Program-made: the position numbers and the translations under genes | Source: Bryobacterales bacterium | GTDB lineage: Bacteria > Acidobacteriota > Terriglobia > Bryobacterales > Bryobacteraceae | Direction: 5' to 3' | DNA: 64,000 bases | NCBI GenBank assembly: GCA_003157745.1 | Contig: PMKM01000242.1 | Span: forward strand, 67,375-131,374 | The notes under the pieces: model-generated | What the model was told of the DNA's origin: nothing | Database searches by the model: none | What the model saw: the letters and a program-made list of their open reading frames with translations, nothing else | In this document: piece by piece, positions 8,656 through 51,337 of the stretch | Layout: every line of letters begins with the position of its first letter | How positions within the stretch are numbered: position 1 is the first letter of the stretch

Positions 8656-8792
8656 GGTCTCGCCGAGCTTGGCAAATCGCTCGTAAGTTGCAGCGTAGCA
8701 CCAATTGGAAAATCGTAGCAAGCAACCCTCGGGAGCCAGGACTTGTGTCCGGGCTTGCCAGCCCAGGATGTCGGCGAATGTCTATGCGGCCG

Positions 8793-10217
8793 TCATCTGC
8801 TTCGCTTCTGTTCACTGCGGGTGTGCCGGCTCAGAGGCGTCTCTGTGCGGATCTGGGCCACGGTGGATGAATACTTCCCAAGCCAGCCGGACCAGGGCCC
8901 TCCGGCCTGCGCTGGGAGGCCCGATCCCGCCGCGATGTGGTCGCGAAGACGGCTCCTGTTCTTGAGGAGTCGGTCCGCGTCGCCCATGTCGGTCGTCTCG
9001 ACAACTGGACGCCCGTCGTCGCCGAACATGCGCTGAAAGCGCACGAACGAGTTGGCTCGAAGCTTTCCCTGGCTCCGCGCGGCGGCTATCTCAGGCGTGT
9101 GATAGATGAAGTGGACCTGAGCGTCGGTCCCCTCCAGCAGCATGTATTGGCGGCCGGAATCCTCTTCGCCGTGGGTCAGCACCCGCCCTTCAATCACCGA
9201 TAGCTTCCGCGGGTTTGTGACCACCAAGGGAAGACGGTCGTCTGAAAGAAGCGCCCCGTGTGCCTGAAGGATTCGCTGACGATCCTGCGCCTGTTGCATG
9301 GCCCGGAGAACGGCGGCGAAGTCGCGACGGATTTGCCATTCGTCGCCGCTGACAGGCTCCGCCAGGCCCATCTTGTGAAGCTGAACCAGCCTGGCACGGA
9401 CGTGCTGTTCCTGCGCCTGGATTGCCGACGGGGCATTCCGGCTGATAGCGTTAACCATGATCGAAAAGGTGCCTCCAGTGGCCCCCACATCCGTGGACTG
9501 GCCTACCCTGCCGATCAGACGGTCCAGCGAAGTGAGCCGTTGTTCGGCCACCTCTCGCCTCTCGGCTTCAATCGCGTCCCGTTCGGTGCGATATCCAAGT
9601 TGCGCCGTACAAAGATCCTCCGCTGCGTTACGGATGCCCACCTTGATGTACTCGCGATCCAGGCGCAGTTCGCGACCATCGGCCTTTCCACGAAGGGCCA
9701 CATGAACATGCGGATGCTCTGTGTTGAAGTGCGCCACCGCGCACCACTCCAGTTTCCGCGAGAGTTCGGTCTCCATCCTGCGCATCGTCTCGCGTGTCAG
9801 CCGGGTCAGGTCCACGCGGTCCCCGAACTCCGGTGACAGGATCAACTTGAACACCCGCTCGTCACCCGCAGACTGCCACTCGTCGAGCCGGTCGGCAACG
9901 TCAACGGTCTCCTCTGTTGCGGTGAACCCCGGCTCCACTTCGGGCGTCCGGACTGCACTGTCACGAGATATGTACTTACCGTGCGCCCTCCACTGGCCGC
10001 CGATCCGATTCGGGGAGTAGGTCACCCGAACGGCGCAACGCTGGCGGCGCGGCCTTGGCGACCGCACGCCCCGAACCGCGCCCGCAGCAAGGCGGCGCGA
10101 CATTCGCGAGTAGTGCATCACCTTCTTGAAGGCCGACGACCACGCGGGTCCGCCGCCTCCCCGTCGAACCCTCGGCTTAGGCGGCCGAAGCCTGAACTCG
10201 CGTTCATCGCTTGCCAT
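8793..10217 (-). CDS. Conjugative relaxase (MobA/VirD2-type nuclease domain with a long C-terminal extension)
   Basis: Histidine-triad motif AHFNTEHPHVHVALRG. It overlaps the upstream RHH gene by 14 nt and lies next to the oriT-like repeat region and the traK/L-like genes. Confidence 0.85.
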   Translation of the reverse strand: MASDEREFRLRPPKPRVRRGGGGPAWSSAFKKVMHYSRMSRRLAAGAVRGVRSPRPRRQRCAVRVTYSPNRIGGQWRAHGKYISRDSAVRTPEVEPGFTATEETVDVADRLDEWQSAGDERVFKLILSPEFGDRVDLTRLTRETMRRMETELSRKLEWCAVAHFNTEHPHVHVALRGKADGRELRLDREYIKVGIRNAAEDLCTAQLGYRTERDAIEAERREVAEQRLTSLDRLIGRVGQSTDVGATGGTFSIMVNAISRNAPSAIQAQEQHVRARLVQLHKMGLAEPVSGDEWQIRRDFAAVLRAMQQAQDRQRILQAHGALLSDDRLPLVVTNPRKLSVIEGRVLTHGEEDSGRQYMLLEGTDAQVHFIYHTPEIAAARSQGKLRANSFVRFQRMFGDDGRPVVETTDMGDADRLLKNRSRLRDHIAAGSGLPAQAGGPWSGWLGKYSSTVAQIRTETPLSRHTRSEQKRSR

Positions 10218-15494: not shown

Positions 15495-16406
15495 TCATCG
15501 GCCAAGCGATGAGCGACTCCGGAGCAACTGGGTTGCTTTCCTCATAGTCCTCTCCAGATAGTCGACCTGACGATGCGGCGACCCCTTGTGCGATAGGTCG
15601 CGGCTCTTGAGTGCCGCTAGAACATCTGCGTCTGCTGCTCCGTGTGACAGCGCGTAGATGGCGTAGGCCAAGTCGATTCGTGTGCCATCCCCGGCATAAA
15701 CAGGATTGTGTCGGAACGAATCGATTGACTTCTTCGCTGATCGCCGTACCGAGGAAACCTGTGGCGTTCGCAGTTCGCGGGCGTTTGCAGCTCGATCAAG
15801 CTCTTCGTGGATTGCGGTGAGAAATCTGCCGGACTCCTGGTAGCGGGCTCCACTCGCCTCGATCATCCGCACGAATGGGAATCGCCCATCGGCGCCCTGA
15901 TATTTCAATTTCCGATTGGTGAACCCCGCCAGACGACCGAAGTGCCGCCAGTCGGCGGCCTTCCTGTCGCCTTCGAATCGCTCCGCCAGTGCACGCGCCG
16001 CGGCCGTACCGACGTCCTTCGGTAGTCGCTCCGGGTGCTTCAGCCAGGCCTGGTAGTTGCCCGGTGAGGTCTCGACGACGAGCGCGGGCTGATAGCCTTC
16101 ACGCTTCATCCGCTCGACTGCATCGGCCTTCAGATCGTCGATGAGGGTCAAATTGTGCTCCCCCTGCGGCCGGATGTAGATGTTCCGGCCTTGGGCATTC
16201 TGGAGCCGCAACCATGGAATCGAGCGCATGAGGCCGGCGACATCCCAGGTTCGGGGGAGCATCGGCGGACCATCGCCCTCGGCGGCGTCCATGCGAAATA
16301 GTCCGAGCTCGAAGACCTCGCCACCCATGGCTTCTACCTGGGCCCTCACGATTTGTGTGGTGATTTCCAACGATGAGCGCGCGTTTCCGGTTCGTGAATC
16401 TGGCAT
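15495..16406 (-). CDS. RepB-type (RSF1010-like) DNA primase domain protein
   Basis: GRNIYIRPQGEHNLTLIDDL...GYQPALVVETSPGNYQAWLKH matches the plasmid RepB primase catalytic-core pattern as I recall it. ATG start at 16406. Confidence 0.7.
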   Translation of the reverse strand: MPDSRTGNARSSLEITTQIVRAQVEAMGGEVFELGLFRMDAAEGDGPPMLPRTWDVAGLMRSIPWLRLQNAQGRNIYIRPQGEHNLTLIDDLKADAVERMKREGYQPALVVETSPGNYQAWLKHPERLPKDVGTAAARALAERFEGDRKAADWRHFGRLAGFTNRKLKYQGADGRFPFVRMIEASGARYQESGRFLTAIHEELDRAANARELRTPQVSSVRRSAKKSIDSFRHNPVYAGDGTRIDLAYAIYALSHGAADADVLAALKSRDLSHKGSPHRQVDYLERTMRKATQLLRSRSSLGR

Positions 16407-16520: not shown

Positions 16521-19103
16521 ATGTCGCTCTATTCGCGCTCGTTGTTGCTGATTCTCATTGCAGCCTGCCGCCTCCTGGGCGGCGAAGCCCCCCTAGGGGC
16601 GGACGCCCTGCGTTCCGGAGAGCGGCTCGGCTATTTGCGGAACTGGAACGCCGCCCGGCCGTTCTACGCGGAAGCCGAGCGTCAGTTCGAAGCTGCTGGC
16701 GACCGCCGCAACGCTCTCTTCGCCGGTATCAGTCGCCTCCGCGGCGACCTCGATTCCCGGTCGTACCTCCAGACATCGGCGCACCTGGCCGAGCTTTTGG
16801 ATCAGCCGCTGCTGCAATCCGATCTCGCGCTCCGTCTGCGTTGCCTTGCTGTGAAGGGCGACGTAGACCTCGAACTCGACACAGATTTGGCTCGGCGGGA
16901 TTGGTCAGAGGCCAAGACCGTCGCGGAGAAGTTGAACGAGCCCGCCTGGGTGAACCGGGCGAACGCAGAGTTGGCCATCACCGGCTTCCTGGCTGGCGAC
17001 GTCAAGGGTGCCGCCATCGGCATGGCAGAAGCAATCCAGAAGGCGAAGGAACTGAACGACCAGGGATCGCTGGTCCGCTATGAGGCCCTCGTCGGGCACG
17101 GCCTAGTGCAGTGGAAGATGTACGACAAGGCGCTAAAGTTCTTCGACGATGCCCTTGCCATTGCGCAGAAGAATCCGGATATTCAGCGTCCGCTGCTGGT
17201 CTACTCGGGGAAGATCGACGCTCTGATTGCGTTGGGACGGGCGGCGGAGGCACAGAAACTCCTCGAAACGGCGTTGGACGGTGCCCGCGCGAACTCCGCA
17301 AAGGGTTATGAAGCTGAACTGCATCTGCGCGCGGCGCTGCTCAAATGGAAGCAGGGCGAGCGGCGACAAGCTATCTCCGAACTGAACGGCGCGATTCAGA
17401 TTGCGGACTCCATCGGCGCTATCCGGATTGCCGGGCAATGCTCCTTCCAACTGGCCCAGTATTTCGAGGCGTCCGGCAACCTGCCAGCCGCCAGCAGCGC
17501 AATCCGCCGTACCATCGCCACCGGCAGGAAAGCGGGCGACCGCCTCTTGCTACCGGCCGCCCTGGCGGAGGCTGGACGCATTGAGATCGCGCTCGGGAGA
17601 CTCCCCGCAGCCGACAGCTACTTCGAAGAAGCCGCCGCCATCGCGAACGGAATCATCGCCTCCGCCCCGACGATCACGTCAAAAGACCAGTTCATCGCCT
17701 CTCTCGATAACCTCTACCTCGATCACTTCCGCCTTCACGTCCGGCGGCACGATATCGCTGGGGCCTTCCGGGTTCTGGAAGAGGCGCGGGGGCGAGCCGT
17801 CGCCGACGCCCTTCGCAACGGCAGCGCGGACGCGCGTCCATTGACTGCCCGCCTGACGCCCAATGAAAAACGGGTCTCGCAGCTCCAACTGGCCCTCCTC
17901 CGAACCACGGCCAAGGCCGAGCGGCAGCGGCTGCTTTCGTCGCTCGAACGCTCCGAAGAGGAGTTGTTTCCGGCGTTGGTGTCACCTCGCGGCGGCGCAA
18001 CGCCAACCGAGCCGGTCGATATCGCCACGTTGCGGAACAACCTTCCACCCGGACACGTCCTGGTCGAATACCAGCTCGCCGAACCGTGGTCCCATTGCCT
18101 CGTCATTACGAGAGATCGTGCCTATGCAAAGCAGATTCCCGGCGCGGCGGAATTGACCCGAACCGTTGAAAAGCACCTGAAGGCCATCGAGCAGCGCGCC
18201 GATTTCGGAGAATCGGGTCGAGCGCTATTCGAGGTGCTCCTGCCAAGCGAGGCGCGCACGGCCGCCAACCTGATCGTCGTTCCCGATGGCGCGCTGTACG
18301 GGTTGCCATTCGAAACGCTTATCGACGCCGCTGGCAAGGCCTTCATCGACAAGCACACCGTCTGGTACGAGCCTTCCGCCACTGTCCAGTACCTGCTGGC
18401 ACGCCGCCATCCCCAGCCTCCTCCCACCCTGCCTTTGCTCGCGGTCGCTGCGGGTACAGACGGTTTGGGCACGCCGACCAGCCCGGTGCGGCGCAACATG
18501 TTCGACGTTCGCGGCACGTCCTTGCCAGCGCTTCCCGCAGCCAACGGCGAAGCCAGACTGGTCGGCGAGGCGATGGGGCCGCAGAGCGTGGTCATCACCG
18601 GCCGGGCGGCCACGGAGTCGGCTATCAAGAAGCAGCCGCTCGCGCGCTACCGCGTCCTTCACTTCGCAGTCCACGGGCTTGCCGCACCCGATCACCCGGA
18701 ACGGGCCGGGCTCGTCTTTTTCCCGGATGAAGCCGCCGCTGAGGACGGACTTTGGCAACTTCGCGACATCGCCCGCAGCAGGCTCTCCGCCGATCTCGTC
18801 ACGCTCTCTGCCTGCCGCGCCGGTAGCGGCAAGGTGCTCGGAACCGCCGGCACAGTGAGCCTTGTGACGGCCTTCCTGGCCGCCGGCGCGCGGTCGGTCG
18901 TCGCGAATCTGTGGGACTCCGACGACACCTTCACCAAAGCCCTAATGGGCAGTTTCTACCGCCACCTGGCCCAGAACATGCCCGCCGCCGAAGCCCTCCG
19001 GCAGGCGAAACTGGAAATGCGCGCGCGATACGGTGCAGAGGCGCCTCCTTACCTGTGGGCGGGTTTCACGCTCACCGGCATCAACGGACCGATACATCCA
19101 TGA
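16521..19103 (+). CDS. Exported TPR-repeat / CHAT-domain (caspase-fold) protease
   Basis: N-terminal signal-like MSLYSRSLLLILIAACRLLGG. About 450 aa of TPR-like helical repeats. C-terminal CHAT dyad context: VLHFAVHG (His718 codon 18672-18674) and TLSACRAG (Cys765 codon 18813-18815). Confidence 0.85.
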   Translation: MSLYSRSLLLILIAACRLLGGEAPLGADALRSGERLGYLRNWNAARPFYAEAERQFEAAGDRRNALFAGISRLRGDLDSRSYLQTSAHLAELLDQPLLQSDLALRLRCLAVKGDVDLELDTDLARRDWSEAKTVAEKLNEPAWVNRANAELAITGFLAGDVKGAAIGMAEAIQKAKELNDQGSLVRYEALVGHGLVQWKMYDKALKFFDDALAIAQKNPDIQRPLLVYSGKIDALIALGRAAEAQKLLETALDGARANSAKGYEAELHLRAALLKWKQGERRQAISELNGAIQIADSIGAIRIAGQCSFQLAQYFEASGNLPAASSAIRRTIATGRKAGDRLLLPAALAEAGRIEIALGRLPAADSYFEEAAAIANGIIASAPTITSKDQFIASLDNLYLDHFRLHVRRHDIAGAFRVLEEARGRAVADALRNGSADARPLTARLTPNEKRVSQLQLALLRTTAKAERQRLLSSLERSEEELFPALVSPRGGATPTEPVDIATLRNNLPPGHVLVEYQLAEPWSHCLVITRDRAYAKQIPGAAELTRTVEKHLKAIEQRADFGESGRALFEVLLPSEARTAANLIVVPDGALYGLPFETLIDAAGKAFIDKHTVWYEPSATVQYLLARRHPQPPPTLPLLAVAAGTDGLGTPTSPVRRNMFDVRGTSLPALPAANGEARLVGEAMGPQSVVITGRAATESAIKKQPLARYRVLHFAVHGLAAPDHPERAGLVFFPDEAAAEDGLWQLRDIARSRLSADLVTLSACRAGSGKVLGTAGTVSLVTAFLAAGARSVVANLWDSDDTFTKALMGSFYRHLAQNMPAAEALRQAKLEMRARYGAEAPPYLWAGFTLTGINGPIHP

Positions 19104-20353
19104 CCAGCGCACCTTTCAACCAAGAGATACGCGAGAAGGTCTTCTCCAAAGTTGTCGAGACCGTGGCGGAGAAGCTGTACGACCCCGCCTTGAACGGCGT
19201 CGATTGGCCCAAGATCACTGAGGAACGCAGCACGGGGATCGTGTCCAGCGAATCGACCGAACAGTTCGAGCGCCGGATGAACGAACTGATTCGCGAGTTG
19301 CGCGTAAGCCACGCTGGCTTCTTTCACGAGAGCCAGCCGCGCGCGACGGCCAAGGTCTCCATTGGTGCGACGTTCAACAACGAAAGCGACCGCTGGGTAT
19401 TCCAGGATGTCCATGCCGGTGGCCCGGCGCACGCCGCCGGGCTCGTCCCCGGCAACATCCTGCTGGCGGTTGCGGGCAAAGACGCCGCGCCGCCGGAGAT
19501 CCCGTCCTTCGCCATGGGCGAATCGGTGGCTCTCGATGTGGAACGTGCTAACGGCGCCCGCGAGCGGGTTCAGATCCTCATCCCGGTGGCCAAGAACAAG
19601 AAGCATCCAGTGGTCAGCCTCGACCCGCCAAGCTGGAAGCGGCTTGCCGACGGCATCGGATATCTGAAAATCGCGCTGTTTCCCGGCATTGTGGGAATCG
19701 ACGTGGCGCGCGACATCGACCGCGCCGTCTGCGAACTCGACTGCGAAAGGCTGGTCATCGACCTGCGCGGCAACGCCGGTGGCGGTATGGGGAGCCTTCG
19801 CGTGATGAGCTACCTCACCCCGGATCGGCTGCCTGTAGGCTACAGCGTCACCCGCAAGGATTTGGACCGTCCTGGCTTCCGTAAGGATCGCCTTCCAACC
19901 TTCGAGCGGATTCCGGATCTCAAACTGGGGCTGCTGCCTCTTATGATCCGGTTCGCGATCCGCGGGCGGTCGGTAGCCGTGTTTACCGAGGCGAAGGGCG
20001 CACAGCGCTTCCATGGTCGCGTGGCGATTCTGGTCAACGAACATACGGCCAGTTCGAGCGAGATGGTCACGGCGTTTGCATCGGAAAACGGGCTGGCCAC
20101 AGTGGTTGGCAGCCGCACCGCCGGCCGACTGCTCGGCAGCGATTCGTTCCGCGTGGGCTATGGATACCGTCTAGCGCTGCCGGTCGTGGAATACCGGACC
20201 TGGCGGGACGTCCGGCTGGAGAAAAACGGCGTGGCGCCCGACATCGAGGCACCATTTGACGCGAAAGCCCAACGCGAAGGAGTGGATACTCAGTTGGACG
20301 CGGCCATCGCGGCGGTGCAGGCTGGAGCCGCTCAGCGGATCGCGACGGGGTAA
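19100..20353 (+). CDS. S41-family (C-terminal-processing type) peptidase with a PDZ domain; no signal peptide
   Basis: The ATGA overlap with the CHAT gene stop indicates translational coupling. PDZ-like GGPAHAAGLVPGNILLAVAG. S41 motifs DLRGNAGGG and VNEHTASSSEMV (Ser codons 20051-20059). Confidence 0.8.
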   Translation: MTSAPFNQEIREKVFSKVVETVAEKLYDPALNGVDWPKITEERSTGIVSSESTEQFERRMNELIRELRVSHAGFFHESQPRATAKVSIGATFNNESDRWVFQDVHAGGPAHAAGLVPGNILLAVAGKDAAPPEIPSFAMGESVALDVERANGARERVQILIPVAKNKKHPVVSLDPPSWKRLADGIGYLKIALFPGIVGIDVARDIDRAVCELDCERLVIDLRGNAGGGMGSLRVMSYLTPDRLPVGYSVTRKDLDRPGFRKDRLPTFERIPDLKLGLLPLMIRFAIRGRSVAVFTEAKGAQRFHGRVAILVNEHTASSSEMVTAFASENGLATVVGSRTAGRLLGSDSFRVGYGYRLALPVVEYRTWRDVRLEKNGVAPDIEAPFDAKAQREGVDTQLDAAIAAVQAGAAQRIATG

Positions 20354-21018
20354 GTCCGCCAACTCCCGTCCGGGCCATGCACGCCTAGGACGTACGAACC
20401 TGCGGCGAGACGGGAAAAGTCGAAGGCGACCGAAAGGGTGGCCACGTGATCCGCGAACGCCGTGGAAGCCGTGTTCGTCATCACCGCGTGAAGCTCGCTG
20501 TCCATGACCCGAACTTCGTACTTGCCCTCGTCCGATCCCACAGGCAACGAAAGCACCAGCCGGACCGCCTTGCGATCCAGCGTGGCGGCCAATGGCTTGG
20601 ATTGCGGCGCAGCCTCGACCTCGCTGCGCGCCGGGCCGAACGGCCGAAGGTCCACGTTAATGACCGCCGCAACGGTGGTCGGAGGTGCCGGAAGCCGCGT
20701 GCCGCCGGTCCAGAACACGACGCCGCCGATTCCTGCCACCATGACAACCGACGCCAGCACCAACCGGTTCCGCCGAACCAGGCGTTTTCTGGCGGCCATC
20801 GCGACCTGCCGGAGTTCCAGAAACTCCTTGAAACAGGGGGAACAGTGGGAAACGTGCTCCCATGGCTCGTCCTGGATTGGTCTCAGCCGGGCCGCAACCT
20901 CCCGAACGACGTGCTCGCCGGGACACCCCTTACGTTCAGGATTTGGGTAGCTCTTCAGGACCGCCTGCTGTAGCAGGTCCTGGATTTCGTTCGAAAGATC
21001 CTCGGGCGTCTCGGGCAT
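20332..21018 (-). CDS. Zinc-binding anti-sigma-factor-like (ZAS, HxxxCxxC) single-pass membrane protein
   Basis: H55-VSH-C59-SP-C62 fits the ZAS motif. One TM helix (LVLASVVMVAGIGGVVFW) and a ~125-aa beta-rich extracytoplasmic tail. Its 3' end overlaps the convergent S41 gene by 22 nt. Confidence 0.6.
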   Translation of the reverse strand: MPETPEDLSNEIQDLLQQAVLKSYPNPERKGCPGEHVVREVAARLRPIQDEPWEHVSHCSPCFKEFLELRQVAMAARKRLVRRNRLVLASVVMVAGIGGVVFWTGGTRLPAPPTTVAAVINVDLRPFGPARSEVEAAPQSKPLAATLDRKAVRLVLSLPVGSDEGKYEVRVMDSELHAVMTNTASTAFADHVATLSVAFDFSRLAAGSYVLGVHGPDGSWRTYPVAIR

Positions 21019-21174: not shown

Positions 21175-24100
21175 CTATGCCGACGCTTGCCGATGCCGCA
21201 ACAACTCGGCCTGGATTGCCTCTGCCTCAACCCGCAGTGCAGCAGCCTTGTCGGGTTGGCCCATCGCTTCGAAGATGATCGCTTGGTTGTGAAGGCTGTT
21301 TCGCAGCACGCTGGGCAGGGGAAGGTCGCGACAGATGGCTTCCTGCCGCTGGGCCAATCCGAGTGCTTCCTGCAATTGGCCTCGAGCATAAAGGATACCG
21401 GCTTGGTCGCCATAAGTCCGCGCCATCCCCTCGCGGTTGCCCAACTCTTCACAGATTCTCTCCTTGCGGAGCAGCAACGTCATGGCGTCATCGAGTTGCC
21501 CCGCAGTCTGGAGGATGGTGGCCTTGTTACCGCAAATCTTCTGCAACCCGTCTCTATCTCCCAAGTCCTCACAGATCTTTTCCTCAGCGTTGTAGAGAGC
21601 CATCGCCTCCCCAAGGTGCCCGCTGTCTACAAGGATCCCGGCCATTCCGCCGTAGCATCTTCCCAAAGCTGCTGGGTCACCCAGCTTTTCGCTGATCTCG
21701 CCTTGTCGCTGAAGGAGCCTCATCGCGTCCGCGAACTGGCCCAGTTCTCGTAAAATTCCAGCCTGGTTGCCGTAACTGTTGGCCAAGCCGTGAGGGTTGC
21801 CGAGTTCCTCATAGATTTTCTCCTGGCGCTGGAACAGCGTCATGGCTGCTTTCGATTGGCCCCAGTCTCTAAGGATCAGGCCCTGATTGCCGTAGCTGGC
21901 TGCCAGATTCGCTTGGTCGCCCAACTCTTCGCAGATCTTCTCTTGCCGTTGCAGTAGTTCCAGTGCCTCGGTGTATTGACCCCATTCGCGAAGGATCGTA
22001 GCCTGATTGCAGTAGCTCCCTTGGAGCCTCGCAGGGTCGCCGAGTTCCTCGCAGATTTTCTCCTGCCGCTTCAGTAGGCTCATAGCCTCCTTAAGCTGTC
22101 CCCACCGGATGAGAATGAGTGCTTGGTTGCCGTAGCTCGACATCAAGCTTCGACGGTCTCCTCGGTCGGTGCAGATTTTCTCTTCTCGACGGTGCAGTGC
22201 CATGGCTTCTTTCAGTTGGCCCCACATTTGGAGGATCAGGGCTTGGTTGCCGTAGCTCGACGCCAGGCCGTCCTGGTCGCCCAATTCCCCGCAGATCTCT
22301 TCCTGGCGATGCAGCAGTTCCATAGCCTCCTTGAGATGCTCCCCGCCCATCAGGAGCAGTATTCCAGCCCGAGTGCCGTAGCTACTCGCCAAGCCGGCGC
22401 GGTCATTCAACTCTTCGCAGATCTTCTCCCCACGCTGGAGCAGCGCCACGGCTTCTGTCAGTCGGTGGCGGTCTATGAGAATCAAAGCTTGATTAAGGTA
22501 GCTCAGTGCCAAACGCTGCCGGTCGCCCAGCTCCTCGCAGGTCTCTTCCTGGCGGTGAAGAAGGTCCATGGCCTCACTCAATTGGCCCCATGACTTTAGA
22601 ATCAAAGCCTGATTGCCATAGCTTGATGCCAGGCTAGCGCGGTCCCCTAACTCTTCGCAGATCTTTGCCCCGCGCTGGAGGAGGACCATTGCCTCCTTGA
22701 GTTGGCCCCGCGCCTTGAGGATCAGCGCCTGGTTACCGTAGCTAGACGCCAGCCCGGAACGGTCACCCAACTCCTCGTAGATCTTCTCCTGTTGGTGCAG
22801 CAACGCCATGGCTTCGCCTAACCGGTCCCAACCCAGGAGGATGCTTGCTTGGTTGCCATAGCTTGCTGCGAGTCCGGAGCGATCGCCAATCTCCTCTCGG
22901 ATCTTGTCCCCAAGCTGATGCAGTTCCATAGCATCCTTAAGACGCCCCCAGGTCTCTAAAATGAGGGCTTGGCTGCCGTAGCTCGATGCCATGCCGGCGC
23001 GGTCACCCAGCTCCTCACAGATTTGCTGTTCGCGCTGAAGGAGGTTCATTGCCTCTCGCAGCTGGCCCCAGGCCTTAAGGATTAGTGCTTGGCTGCCGTA
23101 GCTCTGCGCCAGATAAGCCCTGTCGCCTAAATCCTCCAAGATCTCTTCCTCGCGTTTGAGAAATGTTAGTGCTTCACTGAGACGTCCCCATTCTTTGAGG
23201 ATGATGGCTTGATTGCGGTAGCTAGATGCCGTGCCTACCGAATCGCCCAATTCTTTGTAGATCGCCTCTTCTCGCTGGTGCAGGGTCATCGCCTCTTGTA
23301 ATTGCCCCTGTTGCAAGAGAATGATGCCTTGAAAACCGTAGCTCCTCGCGAGAAGCTCGCGGTTGCCTGTTTCCTCGCAAATCTTCTGTTGGCGCTGGAC
23401 CAGCGTCATTGCCTCATTGAGCCGGCCCCAAACTTGAAGGACCATGGCCTGGTTGCCGTAGCTCGCGGCCACCTGTTCGCGGTGGCCTGATTTCTCGAAT
23501 ACGGCTTCGGCCACCTGCATCACCTGAATGGCATCTGCGAGGCGCCCACGACGGTGAAGCAAGCAAAAGCCATCAGATGCCAGGTGGTTGAACATTGTGA
23601 GTCGTTCGGGAGGGGGTGGTGTTCCGCATTGGGTCCACTCGATGGCCGACCGCCAGTCGGCCAAATCGTCCTCACACTCGCGCCAACGCTCCTCCCACGC
23701 CTGAAAACTCCGTTCGATCGCTTTGGCGTGGCAGTCTTGCATAGTCGAGTCCTGGCCTGCTTCCGCACGGACTAAAGAGTGTAGACGGTAACGGCCTTTC
23801 TCGCGGTCAAGCACTTCGACAAGGGAGCGCGAATATAGGTCCTGCAAGTGATCGAGCGCGGTCCTTTCATCCATTCCGGCAACTTCCGCAGCTAGACTAA
23901 GCCGAAAGCCAGACGCCGCGCAAATCGCCATCGCGTCCAGGAGTCTGCGAGAATCCGGCCCCACGCTTGTGATTGCGGTACTCAGCAGTCTGCCGACGTC
24001 TAGATCGCCATGAGCAAGTTTGTTCAGGTTTGTTTCTTTGAGCAGGCGGTCCAGGCTGAAGCGTAAGTCATTCTTTAGCAGGCCCGCGGCTACAGCTACA

Positions 24101-25323
24101 GCGATTGGGAGGTGCCCAAGCGACTCCGAGAGCCTTAGATAATCGGATTCGCGCCGCGTTACTTCCGTCGGACCGAGATGTGCCCGGAGCAAATCGAGGC
24201 ACTCTCCGGATGTGAAGACACCAAACTCCGGCGGTCGAAATCGCGTTAAGAACGGCAGACCCGATAGGCGAGTGGTGATCAGAACCGAGCAACGCCCGCC
24301 AGGTATGAGTGCTGCAAAATCGTTTGATTCGACGCTGTCCAGGACGAGAAGGTAATGTCTAGCCTTGCAACGGAGACCAAGCTCGCGTAGCTGAACGTCT
24401 ATTGGTATGCTCGTTTCGATCCCGAGTTGGGCCGACAGCCCGGATACCGCAGACGACAGCTTCAGTCCTGCGCAGTTGAGCCAGTAAACACCTTCGAAGT
24501 CAGGCTTAAAGCGGTGCGCGAATGCGACCACAAGGCTCGTCTTGCCTAAGCCAGGCATTCCAATTACCGGCACAACCGCGCCGGGCTCGGCCAGTCGTCC
24601 ACGGAGAGCTTCGAGAGCGTTTGTCCGTCCGACGAACCAGTCCGGTTCGCTCGGCGCGAAGAAGGCCGGGTCGATAAGAGCTGGTTGTTGTGGCATAAGC
24701 TCGCGAAGCTCCTTCAATACAATGCCGAGCTTGATGTAAAGGGCGGCCACGGTTTGCACGTTAAAAATGTCACGCAGCTCAGGCACGGACTTCAATTGAT
24801 CGGCGAAATAGCGGCTGATCTGCTTGAACCAGTCTTCGGAGAGCGCGCTCGTCACCGATTGTGGAGGTGGGCCGAGCTTCGCTTCGACCCACTCGCTCAC
24901 GAGCATCGTAGCGAGCGATTCGCGAAGACGGGCTACAGCCGCGGTTGCAGCCGACTCTTGGACGTCCGGTTCCACCACGAGAGACGGCTCCCAGTCGCCG
25001 AGTGGCAGCGGCGGTACGTAGAGCTTGTCCTTCAGTTTCTCTCTTTCTACGCCTAGCCATTTCAGCGCACTCTTCAGCCACTCGACCGTGTCGGCCGCAG
25101 TTAAGCTGGAGCCAGCATCGTGCCGCGGTCGGTCGAGCAGATCCTTGGTGGCGGCAAGATACGCCTCCCGCAAAGCCCGCTGAAGATGATGATTGGCCGG
25201 CTGGCCCTCGCCGCGTATCCAGTCCCGAATCTTAGGTGCGGCCTTGCACGCAACGGCGTACGTGGCATTTCCTATTGGCCCGCTGACGGCGGCGGAACCT
25301 ATGAAGAACGTGATGGGATCCAT
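21175..25323 (-). CDS. STAND NTPase: unassigned N-terminal ~220-aa domain, NB-ARC-like P-loop module, and about 19 tandem 40-aa TPR repeats
   Basis: Walker A GMPGLGKT (24541-24561). Walker B-like YLLVLDSVE. The C-terminal repeat consensus is SYGNQALILKaWGQLkEAMxLLqRQEkICEELGDRxGLA. The start is either the ATG at 25323 (MDPITFF) or the TTG at 25341. Confidence 0.85.
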   Translation of the reverse strand: MDPITFFIGSAAVSGPIGNATYAVACKAAPKIRDWIRGEGQPANHHLQRALREAYLAATKDLLDRPRHDAGSSLTAADTVEWLKSALKWLGVEREKLKDKLYVPPLPLGDWEPSLVVEPDVQESAATAAVARLRESLATMLVSEWVEAKLGPPPQSVTSALSEDWFKQISRYFADQLKSVPELRDIFNVQTVAALYIKLGIVLKELRELMPQQPALIDPAFFAPSEPDWFVGRTNALEALRGRLAEPGAVVPVIGMPGLGKTSLVVAFAHRFKPDFEGVYWLNCAGLKLSSAVSGLSAQLGIETSIPIDVQLRELGLRCKARHYLLVLDSVESNDFAALIPGGRCSVLITTRLSGLPFLTRFRPPEFGVFTSGECLDLLRAHLGPTEVTRRESDYLRLSESLGHLPIAVAVAAGLLKNDLRFSLDRLLKETNLNKLAHGDLDVGRLLSTAITSVGPDSRRLLDAMAICAASGFRLSLAAEVAGMDERTALDHLQDLYSRSLVEVLDREKGRYRLHSLVRAEAGQDSTMQDCHAKAIERSFQAWEERWRECEDDLADWRSAIEWTQCGTPPPPERLTMFNHLASDGFCLLHRRGRLADAIQVMQVAEAVFEKSGHREQVAASYGNQAMVLQVWGRLNEAMTLVQRQQKICEETGNRELLARSYGFQGIILLQQGQLQEAMTLHQREEAIYKELGDSVGTASSYRNQAIILKEWGRLSEALTFLKREEEILEDLGDRAYLAQSYGSQALILKAWGQLREAMNLLQREQQICEELGDRAGMASSYGSQALILETWGRLKDAMELHQLGDKIREEIGDRSGLAASYGNQASILLGWDRLGEAMALLHQQEKIYEELGDRSGLASSYGNQALILKARGQLKEAMVLLQRGAKICEELGDRASLASSYGNQALILKSWGQLSEAMDLLHRQEETCEELGDRQRLALSYLNQALILIDRHRLTEAVALLQRGEKICEELNDRAGLASSYGTRAGILLLMGGEHLKEAMELLHRQEEICGELGDQDGLASSYGNQALILQMWGQLKEAMALHRREEKICTDRGDRRSLMSSYGNQALILIRWGQLKEAMSLLKRQEKICEELGDPARLQGSYCNQATILREWGQYTEALELLQRQEKICEELGDQANLAASYGNQGLILRDWGQSKAAMTLFQRQEKIYEELGNPHGLANSYGNQAGILRELGQFADAMRLLQRQGEISEKLGDPAALGRCYGGMAGILVDSGHLGEAMALYNAEEKICEDLGDRDGLQKICGNKATILQTAGQLDDAMTLLLRKERICEELGNREGMARTYGDQAGILYARGQLQEALGLAQRQEAICRDLPLPSVLRNSLHNQAIIFEAMGQPDKAAALRVEAEAIQAELLRHRQASA
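21228..23505 (-). repeat. About 19 tandem 120-bp coding repeats (the TPR array of the STAND gene)
   Basis: Exact 120-bp periodicity is visible. For example, gcttggttgccgtagctcga occurs at 22121 and again at 22241, with related strings at 22861, 22981 and 23101. Confidence 0.85.
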
Positions 25324-25641
25324 GGCGATGCGATCGATCAAGTATATCTTGACTCACGCTGCCAAACAGTACTGGAATTCGACGACAGAAATTCGACCTG
25401 GTGCCGCCGGGTATGTAGCCGCAACGCGCCCTTCCGCAATGGAGCAACTACCACATGGCCCCTTTCCGCTAACATCCCAGAGAAGGCCAGTCAGTTCGAT
25501 TCCTCTAATCGAGTATTGGGAACACGGCTCCCCTCGCTCTCCGGCAGACGGTTCGTTTCGAACCTTCTCAATCACCAGCAGCTTACGCGGGTGCTAGTCC
25601 TGCGTCAGCACCACTGCGAGGAAAACTGGACTGAATAGTCG

Positions 25642-26238
25642 CTACCGCAGCTTCAGATCTTCCAACGCCTTGTTGAACCACCGCCAGAAGCGCCTCGTGA
25701 CCGCTTTTGGGTTCTGGTCAACGCGCTCCCCGATCTCTATCCATGGAATGCCATAGAGCCACATGTCAAGCGAGTCGTTGACATCTGGCACGTCGTGCTC
25801 GTCGAAGTACTCGCGCAACAGTCGGCGATACTCCTCGGCCTCCGCCTCCGTCTGAACGTCAGAGGCTGAACGCAGTTTCCGCACCAGACTGGCGAGCAGG
25901 GCTTGTTCGCGGCGCCGGGCGTTTCGCCCGCCGTCACGGAGATCTAGTGCCGCCCATTGGGCATAGGACCAAATCCGGGAACTGGGATTGCGCCCAAGTT
26001 CGTCTCCGTGGCTGCCCCAGACAGCGTGGACGGACTTCTCCGCCACCTCTGAGACACACCAGACGTCCTTGAGAACCCTCCTGGAGAGAGCGCGCAGCGG
26101 ATCGGCAATTGGGACTACAGCTTCAAGCCAACCGCGATTGATAGGCAGACCGTTACGGTCCGTGTCATTGATGCAAATCGGGATGACAAGGGCATCCCGG
26201 AGTGGGTCGTAGTCGAAAGGGATGGTGACGATAGCCAT
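25642..26238 (-). CDS. Hypothetical protein with a C-terminal sigma-70 region-4-like HTH
   Basis: ATG at 26238. The C-terminal GIPWIEIGERVDQNPKAVTRRFWRWFNKALEDL resembles region 4.2 of ECF sigma factors. The N-terminal 130 aa are unassigned and no region 2 was recognised. Confidence 0.45.
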   Translation of the reverse strand: MAIVTIPFDYDPLRDALVIPICINDTDRNGLPINRGWLEAVVPIADPLRALSRRVLKDVWCVSEVAEKSVHAVWGSHGDELGRNPSSRIWSYAQWAALDLRDGGRNARRREQALLASLVRKLRSASDVQTEAEAEEYRRLLREYFDEHDVPDVNDSLDMWLYGIPWIEIGERVDQNPKAVTRRFWRWFNKALEDLKLR

Positions 26239-26367
26239 GCTTCATTTCCAAAGCAAAGTTTTTTTGGCCGCGATTGTCTCAATTTGCGCATCGCACGCCC
26301 TTTCCTGTACGGGACGACCGAGTCCTATACGTTGATTAGCAATATACCACGGACGGCGATTAGACCA

Positions 26368-27396
26368 ATGCCCACTTTAGTAATGGTCGGGGACGAACAG
26401 AGACAGCGCTTTGAAGCGAAGCTGCGCCGGGAATTGGGCGAGACCGTACTTAACTTACTTAATGACCGACGGACCGAGGATATTCTCCTCAATCCTGATT
26501 CCGTCCTGTGGTCCAAGAGGATGGGCGAAGGCTTCGCCCCTGTCGGCAAGATCCCGCCGGCACAAGCGGTCAGTGCGATGAACACCATCGCCGCCTGGAA
26601 AGGCACGGTCATGAATCATGACCGGCCGATCCTGGAGACCGAATTGCCGCTCGATGGCAGCCGATTCGAAGGCATCATTTCGCCTGTCGTGCAGCAGCCG
26701 ATTTTCGCGATTCGTCTGCGTCCGCGTCGAATATTCACGCTCGACGAGTACGAGCTGAGTAGCATTCTCACCCACAAGGCCGACCCGCTAAACCGCCTCC
26801 GAGGTAAGGACCGCTTCCGTGAGTCGCTCGAAGGACTCACTCACGCTGAGATCATCCGCGCCGCTGTGCGGGCAAAGAAGAACATCCTGGTGGTGGGCTC
26901 GACCGGCTCCGGCAAGACCACGCTGGTGAACGCCATCCTCGACGCACAGGCGCAGATCGCGCCCAATGACCGCGTGATCTCCATTGAAGACACCACAGAG
27001 CTGCAATGCGCGGTGAAGAACTGCGTCGATCTCCGTGCGGTGGGTGCAGTCACCATGATGGACTGCCTGCGCGCCTGCATGCGTCTGAAGCCCACGCGTA
27101 TCGTGGTCGGCGAAGTCCGCGGCGCGGAAGCACACACCATGCTCAAGGCGTGGAACACTGGGCACCCTGGCGGCGCTGCAACAGTCCACGCCAACGACGC
27201 GCTCAGCGGGCTGATCCGCCTCGAAAGCCTTGTGGCCGAAGCCACCGCCGCGCCGCAACAGAGTCTCATCGCCGAAGCCATCGACCTGGTCATCTTCGTC
27301 GATGAAGAACCGGACCTGGCCGCCGGCCGCAAGGTCCGCGAGTTAGCCCTCGTCACCGGATACCGCGACGGGCGGTACGAAGTCGAGTATGTCTGA
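26368..27396 (+). CDS. trbB: P-type conjugative transfer ATPase TrbB (VirB11 family)
   Basis: Walker A GSTGSGKTT. RIVVGEVRGAEAHTMLKAWNTGHPGG is the VirB11 His-box region. First gene of the trb operon. The ATG at 26368 is preferred over the TTG at 26284. Confidence 0.9.
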   Translation: MPTLVMVGDEQRQRFEAKLRRELGETVLNLLNDRRTEDILLNPDSVLWSKRMGEGFAPVGKIPPAQAVSAMNTIAAWKGTVMNHDRPILETELPLDGSRFEGIISPVVQQPIFAIRLRPRRIFTLDEYELSSILTHKADPLNRLRGKDRFRESLEGLTHAEIIRAAVRAKKNILVVGSTGSGKTTLVNAILDAQAQIAPNDRVISIEDTTELQCAVKNCVDLRAVGAVTMMDCLRACMRLKPTRIVVGEVRGAEAHTMLKAWNTGHPGGAATVHANDALSGLIRLESLVAEATAAPQQSLIAEAIDLVIFVDEEPDLAAGRKVRELALVTGYRDGRYEVEYV

Positions 27397-35819: not shown

Positions 35820-36026
35820 ATGACTGAACTGGCCGCACGTCGGGAGATCCTAACCCTTCATGAGGTCGCCGAGATCCTCCGCTGCTCGAAAACCCACGTA
35901 TCCAACGTGATCAACGGCAAGGTTGCCGGAGTGCCGAGGCTGACGCATCTGGCGATGGGCCGCCGCAAGCTCATCCGCCGCGCCTGGCTCGATCAATGGA
36001 TGGAAGCGAATAAATCGCAATGTTAG
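35820..36026 (+). CDS. Excisionase/AlpA-like HTH DNA-binding protein
   Basis: 68 aa. LTLHEVAEILRCSKTHVSNVI is HTH_17-type. GAGGA RBS. It lies directly upstream of the integrase gene. Confidence 0.7.
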   Translation: MTELAARREILTLHEVAEILRCSKTHVSNVINGKVAGVPRLTHLAMGRRKLIRRAWLDQWMEANKSQC

Positions 36027-36079
36027 CATCGGAACTATGCCAGTCATCGCCGCTGGAGGCGCAGGAAAGCGAGAAACAA

Positions 36080-44688: not shown

Positions 44689-44726
44689 TGTTCATGCCTA
44701 CTCTCGGGCGGGTTCGAGTGGGTAGC

Positions 44727-45503: not shown

Positions 45504-45536
45504 TCGGCCAGGACCAGCAACCGCGGTGTCTATGCC

Positions 45537-50920: not shown

Positions 50921-51337
50921 ATGCGTCAACAGAGGACATTGCGCGAAAGGATCGAGGAGCGGATCGCACGGAAGCGGCGCGACGACGTGTTCCTTCCCCG
51001 TGAATTCCGGGATCTCGGCGGCGAGGATCAGGTGCTGCGGGTGCTGCGGGGTCTGGTCCGTGAAAGGCGCCTGGTGCGGCTCGGCTACGGCGTCTATGGC
51101 CGTGCCATCGTTTCGCGTCTCACGGGAGAGCCTCTCCTTTACAGCCCGAACGGGTTTCTCGGCGCTGCACGACAAGCCCTCACCAAGCTTGGCGTGAGCT
51201 GGGAACCGACCGAAGCGGAGCGGGCCTATAACGAAGGCCGCTCAACCCAGGTGCCGGTGAATCCGGTCGTGCGGGTGCGGGGACGCTTCTCGCGGCAGCT
51301 CCGTGACGGCACACTGGAGCTGGTGCTTGAGCGATAA
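50921..51337 (+). CDS. abiEi: AbiEi-family antitoxin/transcriptional regulator (type IV TA)
   Basis: The N-terminal wHTH-like segment is VFLPREFRDLGGEDQVLRVLRGLVRERRLVRLGYGVYGR. It overlaps the downstream AbiEii gene. Confidence 0.7.
   Translation: MRQQRTLRERIEERIARKRRDDVFLPREFRDLGGEDQVLRVLRGLVRERRLVRLGYGVYGRAIVSRLTGEPLLYSPNGFLGAARQALTKLGVSWEPTEAERAYNEGRSTQVPVNPVVRVRGRFSRQLRDGTLELVLER

What the first reader, a model, noticed from the sequence alone, without database searches (positions are those of the whole stretch)
16521..20353. Signal-peptide TPR-CHAT protease translationally coupled to a leaderless PDZ-S41 peptidase, convergent on a ZAS-type membrane protein
**Seen in the sequence**
- The CHAT gene (His718/Cys765 dyad context intact) ends in an ATGA overlap with an S41 peptidase gene.
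- The CHAT protein has a Sec-type N-terminus. The S41 protein starts directly with its mature-looking helical domain (REKVFSKVVETVAEKLYDPALNGVDW) and has no signal peptide.
- Where CtpA/Prc-type enzymes have the G-K-G catalytic-lysine context, this protein reads TAGRLLG. The Ser-rich motif (ASSSE) is present.
- The 3' end overlaps by 22 nt the convergent gene for a ZAS anti-sigma-like protein whose C-terminal domain would be periplasmic.

**Established knowledge**
- S41 proteases (Prc/CtpB) perform site-1 cleavage of anti-sigma or signalling proteins.
- CHAT caspase-like proteases act as effectors in conflict systems, for example Csx29 in type III-E CRISPR and CHAT partners of STAND NTPases.

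**Inference**
- The two proteases may form one envelope proteolytic cascade acting on the neighbouring ZAS protein, or act as the effector arm of the adjacent STAND NTPase.
- The compartment mismatch suggests either co-export or a cytoplasmic S41.
Basis: partly seen in the sequence, partly recalled or inferred. Interest (0 to 1): 0.65.

Follow-up and report, generated by a model that had tools for sequence, protein, structure and literature searches.

The report
Sigma/anti-sigma module with two dedicated proteases
The caspase-like protease and the S41 peptidase belong to a conserved, apparently undescribed four-gene signalling module, mostly in Acidobacteriota, that also includes a zinc-motif membrane anti-sigma-like protein and a divergent ECF-type sigma factor, and its two proteases are predicted to sit on opposite sides of the inner membrane.

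Summary
Every sequence observation checks out:
- TPR-CHAT protein with His718/Cys765.
- ATGA overlap with a leaderless PDZ-S41 gene.
- Arg at the CtpA/Prc catalytic-Lys position.
- A 22-nt convergent overlap with a membrane protein carrying HxxxCxxC.

The pairing is not unique to this genome.
- In 80 genome loci with an S41 homolog, a TPR-CHAT gene lies directly upstream in 69 of 72 testable cases. The stop/start gaps are mostly -17 to +15 nt.
- A homolog of the ZAS-like protein lies within 10 kb in 62 of 80 loci. A ~165-235 aa gene sits just upstream of it in nearly every locus where that flank could be read.
- As a family, those upstream genes match ECF sigma structures (E 3.6e-9).
- CHAT homologs carry signal peptides or membrane anchors. 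S41 homologs never do.

Best reading: a sigma/anti-sigma switch in which a periplasmic CHAT acts as site-1 protease, and a cytoplasmic S41, probably using Ser-His-Glu, removes the released anti-sigma fragment.

The STAND NTPase is variable cargo, not a partner. The module lies inside an integrative conjugative element.

The closest precedent is M. xanthus DdvA, where ZAS and TPR-CHAT are fused. I rate this a new variant of a known kind. The mechanism is inferred, not shown.

The parts
16521..19103 (+). Gene for the TPR-CHAT caspase-like protease (860 aa), predicted to be exported. Residues 1-16 form a signal peptide with lipobox IAAC (Cys16 at 16566-16568). Catalytic His718 is at 18672-18674 and Cys765 at 18813-18815.
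   Evidence: Pfam CHAT E 1.3e-58 plus TPR hits. Dyad positions, conserved in 96% of 54 homologs. N-terminal signal peptides or anchors occur in homologs. The lipobox is conserved in sister ICEs.
19100..20353 (+). Gene for the leaderless PDZ-S41 peptidase (417 aa), translationally coupled to CHAT through the ATGA at 19100-19103. Ser318 is at 20051-20053. Arg343, at the CtpA/Prc Lys position, is at 20126-20128. The candidate base His71 is at 19310-19312 and the candidate acid Glu374 at 20219-20221.
   Evidence: Pfam Peptidase_S41 E 1.1e-25. CtpB alignment. Conservation: S318 49/50, H71 50/50, E374 50/50, R343 49/50. AF2 model pLDDT 86.6, with Foldseek hits to D1P, CtpA, CtpB and CPAF. Short gaps to CHAT are conserved.
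20332..21018 (-). Gene for a single-pass membrane anti-sigma-like protein (228 aa). It has a cytoplasmic three-helix domain with a CHCC motif (C32 at 20923-20925, H55 at 20854-20856, C59 at 20842-20844, C62 at 20833-20835). The TM segment is about 20701-20769. A disordered linker leads to a periplasmic Ig-like beta-sandwich (residues ~118-228). Invariant D123-L124-R125 and R131 lie at 20626-20652.
   Evidence: Translation and hydropathy. Motif and periplasmic residues conserved in 61 homologs and 30 homologs. AF2 model and Foldseek. Homologs accompany CHAT-S41 in 62 of 80 loci.
25642..26238 (-). Gene for a divergent ECF-type sigma-like protein (198 aa), the presumed partner of the anti-sigma-like protein. 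It is divergent from virB11.
   Evidence: 34% identical to the L001 ORF that directly precedes the ZAS homolog. hhalign of the ICE-type against the chromosomal sigma-like family gives probability 96.4%, E 1.1e-9. The family profile hits ECF sigma structures across sigma2 and sigma4, E 3.6e-9, and reaches bona fide ECF sigmas. No Pfam hit for this protein itself.
21175..25341 (-). Gene for a STAND NTPase (NB-ARC plus TPR, 1388 aa) sitting between the sigma-like and anti-sigma-like genes. It is variable cargo, not a conserved member of the module.
   Evidence: Pfam NB-ARC and TPR. No homolog in the 80 related loci. The same slot holds unrelated genes in L081, L083 and L085 and is empty in L001.

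Best explanation
The locus encodes a four-gene regulated-proteolysis switch for an alternative sigma factor.

1. The divergent ECF-type sigma (25642-26238) is held at the membrane by the CHCC zinc-motif anti-sigma-like protein (20332-21018).
2. The exported TPR-CHAT protease, a predicted lipoprotein here, acts in the periplasm as the dedicated site-1 protease and/or sensor. It is proposed to cut the anti-sigma's linker or Ig-like domain. The invariant DLR...R stretch next to a disordered loop is a candidate site.
3. A housekeeping site-2 protease then cuts within the membrane.
4. The leaderless S41 peptidase uses its PDZ domain to bind the new hydrophobic C-terminus of the released cytoplasmic anti-sigma fragment. 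It degrades that fragment and frees sigma. This is the role ClpXP plays for RseA.

S41 probably uses a tricorn/CPAF-like Ser318-His71-Glu374 triad rather than the Ser/Lys dyad of CtpA/Prc.

**Shown:** domain identities, conserved four-gene synteny, conserved catalytic residues, and the conserved exported versus leaderless asymmetry.

**Inferred:** who cleaves what, the triad, the involvement of a site-2 protease, the signal, and the regulon.
For: - **Synteny.** CHAT is directly upstream of S41 in 69 of 72 loci, with gaps mostly -17 to +15 nt and many ATGA overlaps. A ZAS-like homolog is in 62 of 80 loci, 19 of them immediately convergent on S41. A 165-235 aa ORF lies upstream of the ZAS homolog in nearly every locus where that flank could be read.
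- **Sigma identity.** The family profile matches ECF sigma structures over sigma2 and sigma4, E 3.6e-9. Members are named sigma-70/sigma24 by NCBI and JGI, and the profile reaches canonical ECF sigmas. The window ORF links to the family by hhalign at 96.4%.
- **Anti-sigma features.** C32/H55/C59/C62 are conserved. A Lys/Arg cluster precedes the TM segment. A three-helix N-domain and a beta-sandwich C-domain are predicted.
- **Active proteases.** The CHAT dyad is 96% conserved. S41 has Ser318 49/50, His71 50/50 and Glu374 50/50.
- **Lys is not used.** The Lys position is variable (R/E/Q/N) in wider relatives, while Ser, His and Glu persist. The tricorn alignment 304-406 to 951-1055 puts Ser318 on Ser965 and Glu374 near Glu1023.
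- **Topology.** CHAT homologs have signal peptides or anchors. S41 homologs start within 2-15 residues of the profile start.
- **Precedents.** DdvA is a ZAS anti-sigma with a periplasmic TPR-CHAT, proposed to self-cleave ahead of RseP (PMC11506125). Prc acts on anti-sigma factors (PMC10392083).
Against: - No biochemical evidence links any of the four proteins.
- The anti-sigma-like family does not hit Pfam zf-HC2 or any solved anti-sigma by sequence.
- The window's sigma-like protein has no direct Pfam sigma hit.
- The N-terminal helical domain carrying His71 could not be aligned to tricorn or CPAF by sequence. Foldseek ranks CtpA/D1P-type enzymes first. The triad is therefore unproven.
- Localisation rests on hydropathy and motif inspection, not a trained predictor.
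- In 18 of 80 loci no ZAS homolog was detected. In 32 loci it is separated from S41 by unrelated genes.
- In this window, sigma and anti-sigma are split by a 4.2-kb STAND gene.
- No shared promoter motif was found.
Confidence: 0.45

Rival explanations
1. The same four-gene sigma/anti-sigma module, but S41 is a negative regulator. It degrades the free sigma factor, or trims its conserved N-terminal extension, to reset the response. CHAT alone handles anti-sigma destruction.
For: S41 is cytoplasmic like sigma. The sigma-like family carries an unusual conserved N-terminal motif ahead of sigma2. Translational coupling to CHAT would give proportional production of activator and resetter.
Against: S41/PDZ proteases typically recognise C-termini (established knowledge of Tsp/Prc and CtpB), and the sigma C-termini are not conserved. 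No direct evidence either way.
Confidence: 0.15
2. CHAT and S41 are targets (the regulon) of the sigma factor rather than its regulators. They would be a stress-induced pair of quality-control proteases, one per compartment. The ZAS-like protein would be inactivated by some other route, for example a redox or zinc switch typical of ZAS proteins.
For: ECF regulons commonly include neighbouring genes, and regulators cannot be told from targets by synteny alone (PMC7826278). The CHCC motif could be a thiol switch (DdvA discussion).
Against: The tight 69-of-72 pairing, the specialised divergent families for all four proteins and the absence of other conserved neighbours fit a dedicated signalling unit better than general quality control. 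TPR-CHAT fused to a ZAS anti-sigma in DdvA argues for a regulatory role.
Confidence: 0.2
3. One reading: CHAT-S41 is the proteolytic effector arm of the adjacent STAND (NB-ARC/TPR) NTPase in a conflict or defence system carried by the mobile element.
For: The STAND gene is adjacent, on a conjugative element. CHAT effectors are known partners of STAND and CRISPR systems (established knowledge; PMC10028731 listed).
Against: No STAND homolog in any of 80 related loci. The slot holds unrelated genes in sister ICEs and is empty in L001. No PADLOC defence model matches CHAT, S41, ZAS or sigma. An exported CHAT could not be activated by a cytoplasmic STAND.
Confidence: 0.04
4. S41 is co-exported with CHAT and both act in the periplasm on the C-terminal tail of the ZAS-like protein, as a Prc-like C-terminal processing step.
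For: The ZAS C-terminus is conserved (W220, P224, R228). Prc/CtpA act on anti-sigma factors in the periplasm (PMC10392083). The genes are translationally coupled.
Against: No signal peptide in any of the 80 S41 homologs or in wider full-length relatives. The window's CHAT leader has a single Arg and is Sec/lipoprotein-like, not Tat-like. Loss of the catalytic Lys and the tricorn-like features point to a cytoplasmic type.
Confidence: 0.08

Closest known systems
DdvA/DdvS of Myxococcus xanthus (ZAS anti-sigma with periplasmic TPR-CHAT, plus ECF sigma)
   Same: ECF-type sigma. Single-pass anti-sigma with a cytoplasmic CHCC zinc-motif three-helix domain. A periplasmic TPR-CHAT with a His-Cys dyad is associated with it and proposed to act as the site-1 protease before intramembrane cleavage (PMC11506125).
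   Different: In DdvA the TPR-CHAT is fused to the anti-sigma. Here it is a separate exported protein, and the anti-sigma carries only a ~110-aa Ig-like domain. No dedicated S41 partner was noted for DdvA in the passages read; the paper's 14 'S41' text matches were not inspected. There is no detectable sequence similarity to solved structures beyond the repeats. The phylum and sigma family also differ.
Canonical RIP of RseA (DegS, RseP, then ClpXP) and Prc-dependent cell-surface signalling
   Same: Stepwise destruction of a membrane anti-sigma: a periplasmic site-1 cut, an intramembrane cut, then cytoplasmic removal of the remnant. PDZ-containing proteases take part. S41 (Prc) is known to act on anti-sigmas (PMC10392083).
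   Different: Site 1 would be a caspase-like Cys protease rather than a DegS or Prc Ser protease. The S41 is on the cytoplasmic side and is encoded in the module rather than being a housekeeping protease.
Tricorn protease core and CPAF (S41 enzymes with Ser-His-Glu)
   Same: S41 fold with an inserted PDZ. The Ser318 and Glu374 spacing matches tricorn Ser965 and Glu1023. Weak Tricorn_C1 hit. No catalytic Lys. Foldseek TM 0.58-0.61 to CPAF. Tricorn is cytoplasmic.
   Different: No beta-propeller domains. It is only 417 aa. The position of His71 relative to tricorn His746 could not be confirmed by alignment.
CRISPR-linked protease/anti-sigma switches (Csx29-Csx30-RpoE craspase; CalpL-CalpT-CalpS)
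   Same: A dedicated protease, TPR-CHAT in craspase, cleaves an anti-sigma-like protein to release an ECF-type sigma (PMC10028731, listed; the CalpL system is from my own knowledge).
   Different: Those systems are fully cytoplasmic and are triggered by RNA or cyclic nucleotides. No CRISPR or SAVED components are here. The NCBIfam Csx29 hit is far below cut-off (15.6 vs 300 bits).
ECF54 group (Actinobacteria) with CHAT, subtilase and carboxypeptidase genes nearby
   Same: An ECF sigma whose conserved neighbourhood includes a CHAT-domain protein and other proteases, proposed to regulate it by proteolysis (PMC8999054).
   Different: ECF54 has no anti-sigma factor and no S41. It is in a different phylum.

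Membership tests
CHAT / clan CD caspase-like peptidase | CHAT domain profile match | tested here: met
   PF12770 E 1.3e-58, 199 bits against a cut-off of 24, residues 564-853.
CHAT / clan CD caspase-like peptidase | His-Cys catalytic dyad in H-G and S-A-C contexts | tested here: met
   H718-G719 and S763-A764-C765. Each is conserved in 96% of 54 homologs.
S41 peptidase (general) | S41 catalytic domain with an inserted PDZ and the nucleophile Ser | tested here: met
   PF03572 E 1.1e-25. Ser318 aligns to the CtpB catalytic Ser and is conserved 49/50. The AF2 model matches the D1P, CtpA and CtpB folds. The PDZ is below the Pfam cut-off but aligns to the CtpB PDZ.
CtpA/Prc/CtpB-type S41A (Ser/Lys dyad) | Catalytic Lys about 25 residues after the Ser (the GKG context) | tested here: not met
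   Arg343 at that position. R in 49/50 close relatives. R/E/Q/N and others, with K only 1/38, in wider relatives. NCBIfam CtpA/B/C/Prc scores are far below cut-offs.
CtpA/Prc/CtpB-type S41A (Ser/Lys dyad) | Export to the periplasm or lumen (signal peptide) | tested here: not met
   No hydrophobic N-terminal segment in the window protein or in 80 homologs. Wider relatives start at the profile start. This is a heuristic; no SignalP was available.
Tricorn/CPAF-type S41 (Ser-His-Glu) | Catalytic His from the N-terminal helical domain and an acid about 56-59 residues after the Ser | tested here: inconclusive
   H71 50/50 and E374 50/50, then 31/38 and 36/38 (+2 Asp) in wider relatives. Coordinates are consistent with tricorn S965 and E1023.
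ZAS (zinc-binding anti-sigma) factors | HxxxCxxC motif plus an upstream Cys/His ligand in an N-terminal helical domain | tested here: met
   C32, H55-x3-C59-x2-C62. Conserved at 93-95% in 61 homologs. Three helices are predicted.
ZAS (zinc-binding anti-sigma) factors | Profile membership (Pfam zf-HC2) or similarity to solved anti-sigma domains | tested here: not met
   No Pfam hit in the window protein or in 9 diverse homologs at E<=1. No PDB sequence hit.
ZAS (zinc-binding anti-sigma) factors | Encoded next to its cognate ECF sigma; binds sigma and zinc | tested here: inconclusive
   A sigma-like ORF lies directly upstream of the ZAS homolog in nearly every related locus where that flank could be read. 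In the window the pair is separated by the STAND gene. Binding is not testable with these tools.
ECF (group 4) sigma factors | Sigma2 and sigma4 domains | tested here: inconclusive
   The family profile hits ECF sigma structures across both domains, E 3.6e-9, and reaches canonical ECF sigmas. The window protein joins the family by hhalign at 96.4%. It has no Pfam hit itself, and relatives give only weak Sigma70_r4_2 hits.
DdvA-like anti-sigma | ZAS domain, TM helix and periplasmic TPR-CHAT in one polypeptide | tested here: not met
   Separate genes on opposite strands here and in all 80 loci.
STAND-CHAT conflict system | Conserved linkage of the CHAT effector with a STAND NTPase | tested here: not met
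   No STAND homolog in the 80 loci. The slot is variable in sister ICEs. No PADLOC hits.

The most novel reading that the evidence does not exclude
A previously undescribed signalling architecture in which an ECF-type sigma factor is controlled by two module-encoded proteases placed on opposite sides of the membrane. A secreted caspase-like TPR-CHAT replaces DegS/Prc as site-1 protease. A cytoplasmic, Lys-less, tricorn-like S41 'tail-specific' protease replaces ClpXP in clearing the anti-sigma stub. In a lineage of acidobacterial conjugative elements the sigma and anti-sigma genes bracket a swap-in cargo slot (STAND NTPase, HNH/trypsin genes and others). The element may therefore use an envelope signal to switch on variable cargo or transfer genes.
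Probability: 0.3. Interest if true: 0.75.

Novelty: new variant of a known kind. Interest (0 to 1): 0.6.

Why it matters
- It would be the first case of a free-standing periplasmic TPR-CHAT serving a sigma/anti-sigma pair. The only studied relative, DdvA, is a fusion whose trigger and self-cleavage remain unproven. A split system is easier to reconstitute because protease and substrate can be purified separately.
- It would assign a function to a bacterial cytoplasmic S41 peptidase that lacks the Ser/Lys dyad. That enzyme class is otherwise known from the archaeal tricorn and chlamydial CPAF.
- Three of the four protein families have no Pfam model or usable annotation. They occur in many, often multi-copy, modules in Acidobacteriota, a dominant and poorly understood soil phylum.
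- The copy on conjugative elements, bracketing variable cargo, hints at envelope-sensing control of mobile-element genes.

Tried and rejected
- **Aligning the S41 N-terminal helical domain to tricorn or CPAF, to place His71.** Profiles of residues 1-100 (A2) and 1-112 from wider relatives (A9) found nothing meaningful in the PDB. Foldseek confirms the S41 fold but does not separate Lys-type from His-type enzymes.
- **Linking the ZAS-like protein to known anti-sigma domains.** Neither the PDB profile search nor Pfam on ten diverse members gave a hit.
- **CHAT against the PDB by sequence.** Only TPR/PPR repeat matches; no DdvA, Csx29 or separase.
- **A conserved extra partner among genes lying between S41 and the ZAS homolog.** The 77 ORFs do not form a conserved family: the largest cluster has 4 members. 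The Pfam content is heterogeneous: MacB/FtsX, beta-propeller, helicase, OMP and a second CHAT.
- **Defence-system models (PADLOC).** Only generic TPR hits.
- **A shared promoter motif upstream of sigma and CHAT genes.** The enriched k-mers are unconvincing and confounded by relatedness. The sigma-70 promoter and terminator scan is at chance level.
- **Plasmid database search with S41.** No match.
- **Literature.** No paper in the library combines CHAT domain with Peptidase_S41. ECF54 has CHAT in its neighbourhood but no anti-sigma.

Full report
**1. What is in the window**

The region holds two plus-strand genes.
- A TPR-CHAT protein at 16521-19103 (860 aa). Pfam CHAT E 1.3e-58, with TPR_12 and TPR_MalT hits.
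- A PDZ-S41 peptidase at 19100-20353 (417 aa). Pfam Peptidase_S41 E 1.1e-25, with sub-threshold PDZ_6 and Tricorn_C1 hits.

The two genes overlap in ATGA at 19100-19103.

Three genes lie on the minus strand, convergent on these.
- A 228-aa protein at 20332-21018, overlapping the S41 3' end by 22 nt.
- A 1388-aa NB-ARC/TPR STAND NTPase at 21175-25341.
- A 198-aa ORF at 25642-26238 with no Pfam hit.

The surroundings are those of an integrative conjugative element.
- On one side: relaxase 8793-10217, ParA, a TraM-like protein and RepB primase 15495-16406.
- On the other: VirB11 26284-27396, VirB4, VirB6, VirB8, VirB9, VirB10 and an integrase at 36020-37183.

**2.

- The CHAT N-terminus MSLYSRSLLLILIAAC is hydrophobic. 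It ends in a lipobox-like [IV]AAC that is conserved in three sister elements.
- S41 has no hydrophobic N-terminal segment.
- Against CtpB, Ser318 aligns with the catalytic Ser and Arg343 with the catalytic Lys.
- The 228-aa protein has C32 and H55-x3-C59-x2-C62, a Lys/Arg cluster, and then one TM segment.

**3. The pairing is conserved, and it is a four-gene module**

S41 has more than 2,400 database relatives, and the 120 best-scoring listed share 50-93% identity with it. A profile search of 1.84 billion cluster representatives gives 409 at E<=1e-30. The full-length ones are 400-433 aa and match from residue 2-15, which leaves no room for a leader.

I fetched 80 genome loci with 10-kb flanks. 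They are mostly Acidobacteriota: Terriglobia, Bryobacterales and Vicinamibacterales. Single loci come from Chthoniobacteraceae, Phycisphaerae, Dormibacteraeota and Binatia. tblastn across these loci shows the following.
- A TPR-CHAT gene ends directly upstream of S41 in 69 of the 72 loci with enough upstream sequence.
- Stop/start distances are mostly -17 to +15 nt, and many are ATGA overlaps.
- A homolog of the 228-aa protein is present in 62 of 80 loci. In 19 it is immediately convergent on S41 (gaps 3-99 nt). In 32 it is convergent but further away. In 9 it is upstream on the same strand.
- A 165-235 aa ORF sits directly upstream of that homolog in nearly every locus where that flank could be read.

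These upstream ORFs form a very divergent family.
- Their profile matches ECF sigma-factor structures across sigma2 and sigma4, E 3.6e-9.
- Some members are annotated as sigma-70 or sigma24 family proteins.
- The profile reaches canonical ECF sigmas carrying the full set of Pfam sigma domains.

The window's 198-aa ORF is 34% identical to the L001 member. Together with its ICE-borne relatives, it aligns to the chromosomal family by hhalign at 96.4% probability, E 1.1e-9, over 170 columns.

The unit is therefore sigma, anti-sigma-like protein, TPR-CHAT and S41.

**4. Catalytic competence and topology**

*CHAT.* The dyad is conserved in 96% of 54 homologs.

*S41.*
- In 50 close relatives: Ser318 49/50, His71 50/50, Glu374 50/50, Arg343 49/50 with one Lys.
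- In 38 wider relatives (33-49% identity), the 'Lys' position is R, E, Q, N, K (once) or other residues, so it is not catalytic. Ser persists in 35/38, His71 in 31/38 and Glu374 in 36/38, plus 2 Asp.
- The tricorn alignment (query 304-406 to 951-1055 of 1N6D) puts Ser318 on Ser965 and Glu374 at about 1021-1023.
- A Ser-His-Glu triad of the tricorn/CPAF kind is thus the best guess.
- I could not align the N-terminal domain to those enzymes. Foldseek on a good model (pLDDT 86.6) confirms only the S41 fold: D1P, CtpA and CtpB lead by E-value, and TM is 0.58-0.64 for 4GHN and CPAF.

*Topology.*
- Most complete CHAT homologs begin with a textbook Sec signal peptide, for example MKAVRIQVLAVYAVAFVLGHSAFG|QQ. 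One clade has an N-terminal anchor instead. S41 never has either.
- The anti-sigma-like protein is predicted as three short helices carrying the CHCC residues, then a long helix running into the TM segment. Disordered stretches follow at 101-111 and 131-139. The model ends in an Ig-like beta-sandwich at 118-228 (pLDDT about 85-89).
- Invariant D123-L124-R125 and R131 flank the second disordered loop.

**5. What the STAND gene is**

No STAND homolog occurs in the 80 loci. Sister conjugative elements share the same backbone. The slot between the anti-sigma and sigma genes differs between them.
- L083: a 1519-aa protein with no Pfam hit.
- L081: HNH_5, a trypsin-like protein and unknowns.
- L085: three small opposite-strand ORFs.
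- L001: nothing.

PADLOC finds no defence model for any module protein. The STAND NTPase is therefore variable cargo, not the partner of CHAT-S41.

In chromosomal loci, the genes lying between S41 and the anti-sigma homolog are likewise heterogeneous.

**6. Mechanism proposed**

By analogy with regulated intramembrane proteolysis of anti-sigma factors, and with DdvA, I propose four steps. DdvA is a ZAS anti-sigma whose periplasmic TPR-CHAT is proposed to self-cleave before RseP acts (PMC11506125).
1. The exported CHAT makes the site-1 cut in the anti-sigma's periplasmic linker or domain.
2. A housekeeping site-2 protease cuts in the membrane.
3. The cytoplasmic S41 recognises the new hydrophobic C-terminus through its PDZ domain.
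4. S41 degrades the stub and releases sigma.

Only the parts list, the synteny, the conserved residues and the predicted topology are shown. The substrate assignments are inference. Confidence that the four genes form one sigma-regulatory unit is about 0.75. Confidence in the full mechanism is about 0.3-0.45.

The rival readings are: S41 as a sigma-turnover protease, the proteases as regulon targets, co-export of S41, and a STAND effector arm. They are listed with their tests.

**7. Comparison and novelty**

- It works like DdvA/DdvS, but split into separate proteins and with an added S41.
- It works like DegS-RseP-ClpXP, but with different, dedicated proteases.
- It is not a CtpA/Prc-type S41, because the Lys and the export features both fail. 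It is not a craspase or a STAND system.
- ECF54 has CHAT genes nearby but no anti-sigma (PMC8999054; PMC7826278).
- No paper in the library combines a CHAT domain with Peptidase_S41.

I classify it as a new variant of a known kind, of moderate to high interest to people working on ECF signalling and bacterial caspase-like proteases.

Noticed in passing
window 8793-37183: The module sits inside an integrative conjugative element: relaxase, ParA, TraM-like protein and RepB primase on one side; VirB11/B4/B6/B8/B9/B10 and a tyrosine integrase (36020-37183) on the other. CobN and a TonB-dependent receptor (2494-8721) flank it on the left. No tRNA gene is present in the window.
   Followed up: partly
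window 21175-25341; L081 12134-17184; L083 10705-15264; L085 5266-7593: In sister conjugative elements the interval between the anti-sigma-like and sigma-like genes is a swap-in cargo slot. It holds a STAND NTPase here, a 1519-aa unknown protein, an HNH_5 plus trypsin-like set, or three small ORFs. It is empty in L001.
   Followed up: partly
window 25642-26238 and sigma-like ORFs of L001-L076 (alignment A4): The divergent sigma-like family carries a conserved N-terminal motif, roughly (W/L)I..D..G.P(I/L/V), ahead of the sigma2 region. Its function is unknown.
   Followed up: no
window 37733-59333: To the right of the integrase lie a VapE-like primase/helicase (37733-39817), glycosyltransferases (43678-46505), an AbiEii toxin-like nucleotidyltransferase (51303-52247), and a PLD-like protein (53857-56022) followed by a large helicase (55923-59333). 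This could be a second mobile or defence island.
   Followed up: no
L084 8001-9283: A ZAS-like homolog converges, again with a 22-nt overlap, on a truncated 195-aa S41 gene with no CHAT gene. Ku genes follow. This looks like a decayed copy of the module.
   Followed up: no
L001 11278-14105 and 15973-17190: In Acidobacteriaceae KBS 96 the module is also ICE-borne (VirB4, VirB9, integrase). It is followed by a reverse-transcriptase-domain gene plus a 604-aa unknown protein, possibly a retron or DRT-like defence cargo.
   Followed up: no
L059 405-6321; several genomes with 2-3 loci (for example CAVSTI01, CAWIRB01, JAKEER01, CAWFRI01): The modules are multi-copy in some Acidobacteriota genomes. 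One locus has two tandem TPR-CHAT paralogs. This suggests paralogous expansion of the kind seen in other ECF systems.
   Followed up: no
representatives P0232-P0286: A wider clade of leaderless ~400-430 aa S41 proteins (33-49% identity) also lacks the catalytic Lys but keeps Ser, His and Glu. One subclade replaces S-H71 with H-P, N-P, F-P or Q-P. Whether these are also linked to CHAT genes could not be checked with the tools allowed.
   Followed up: partly
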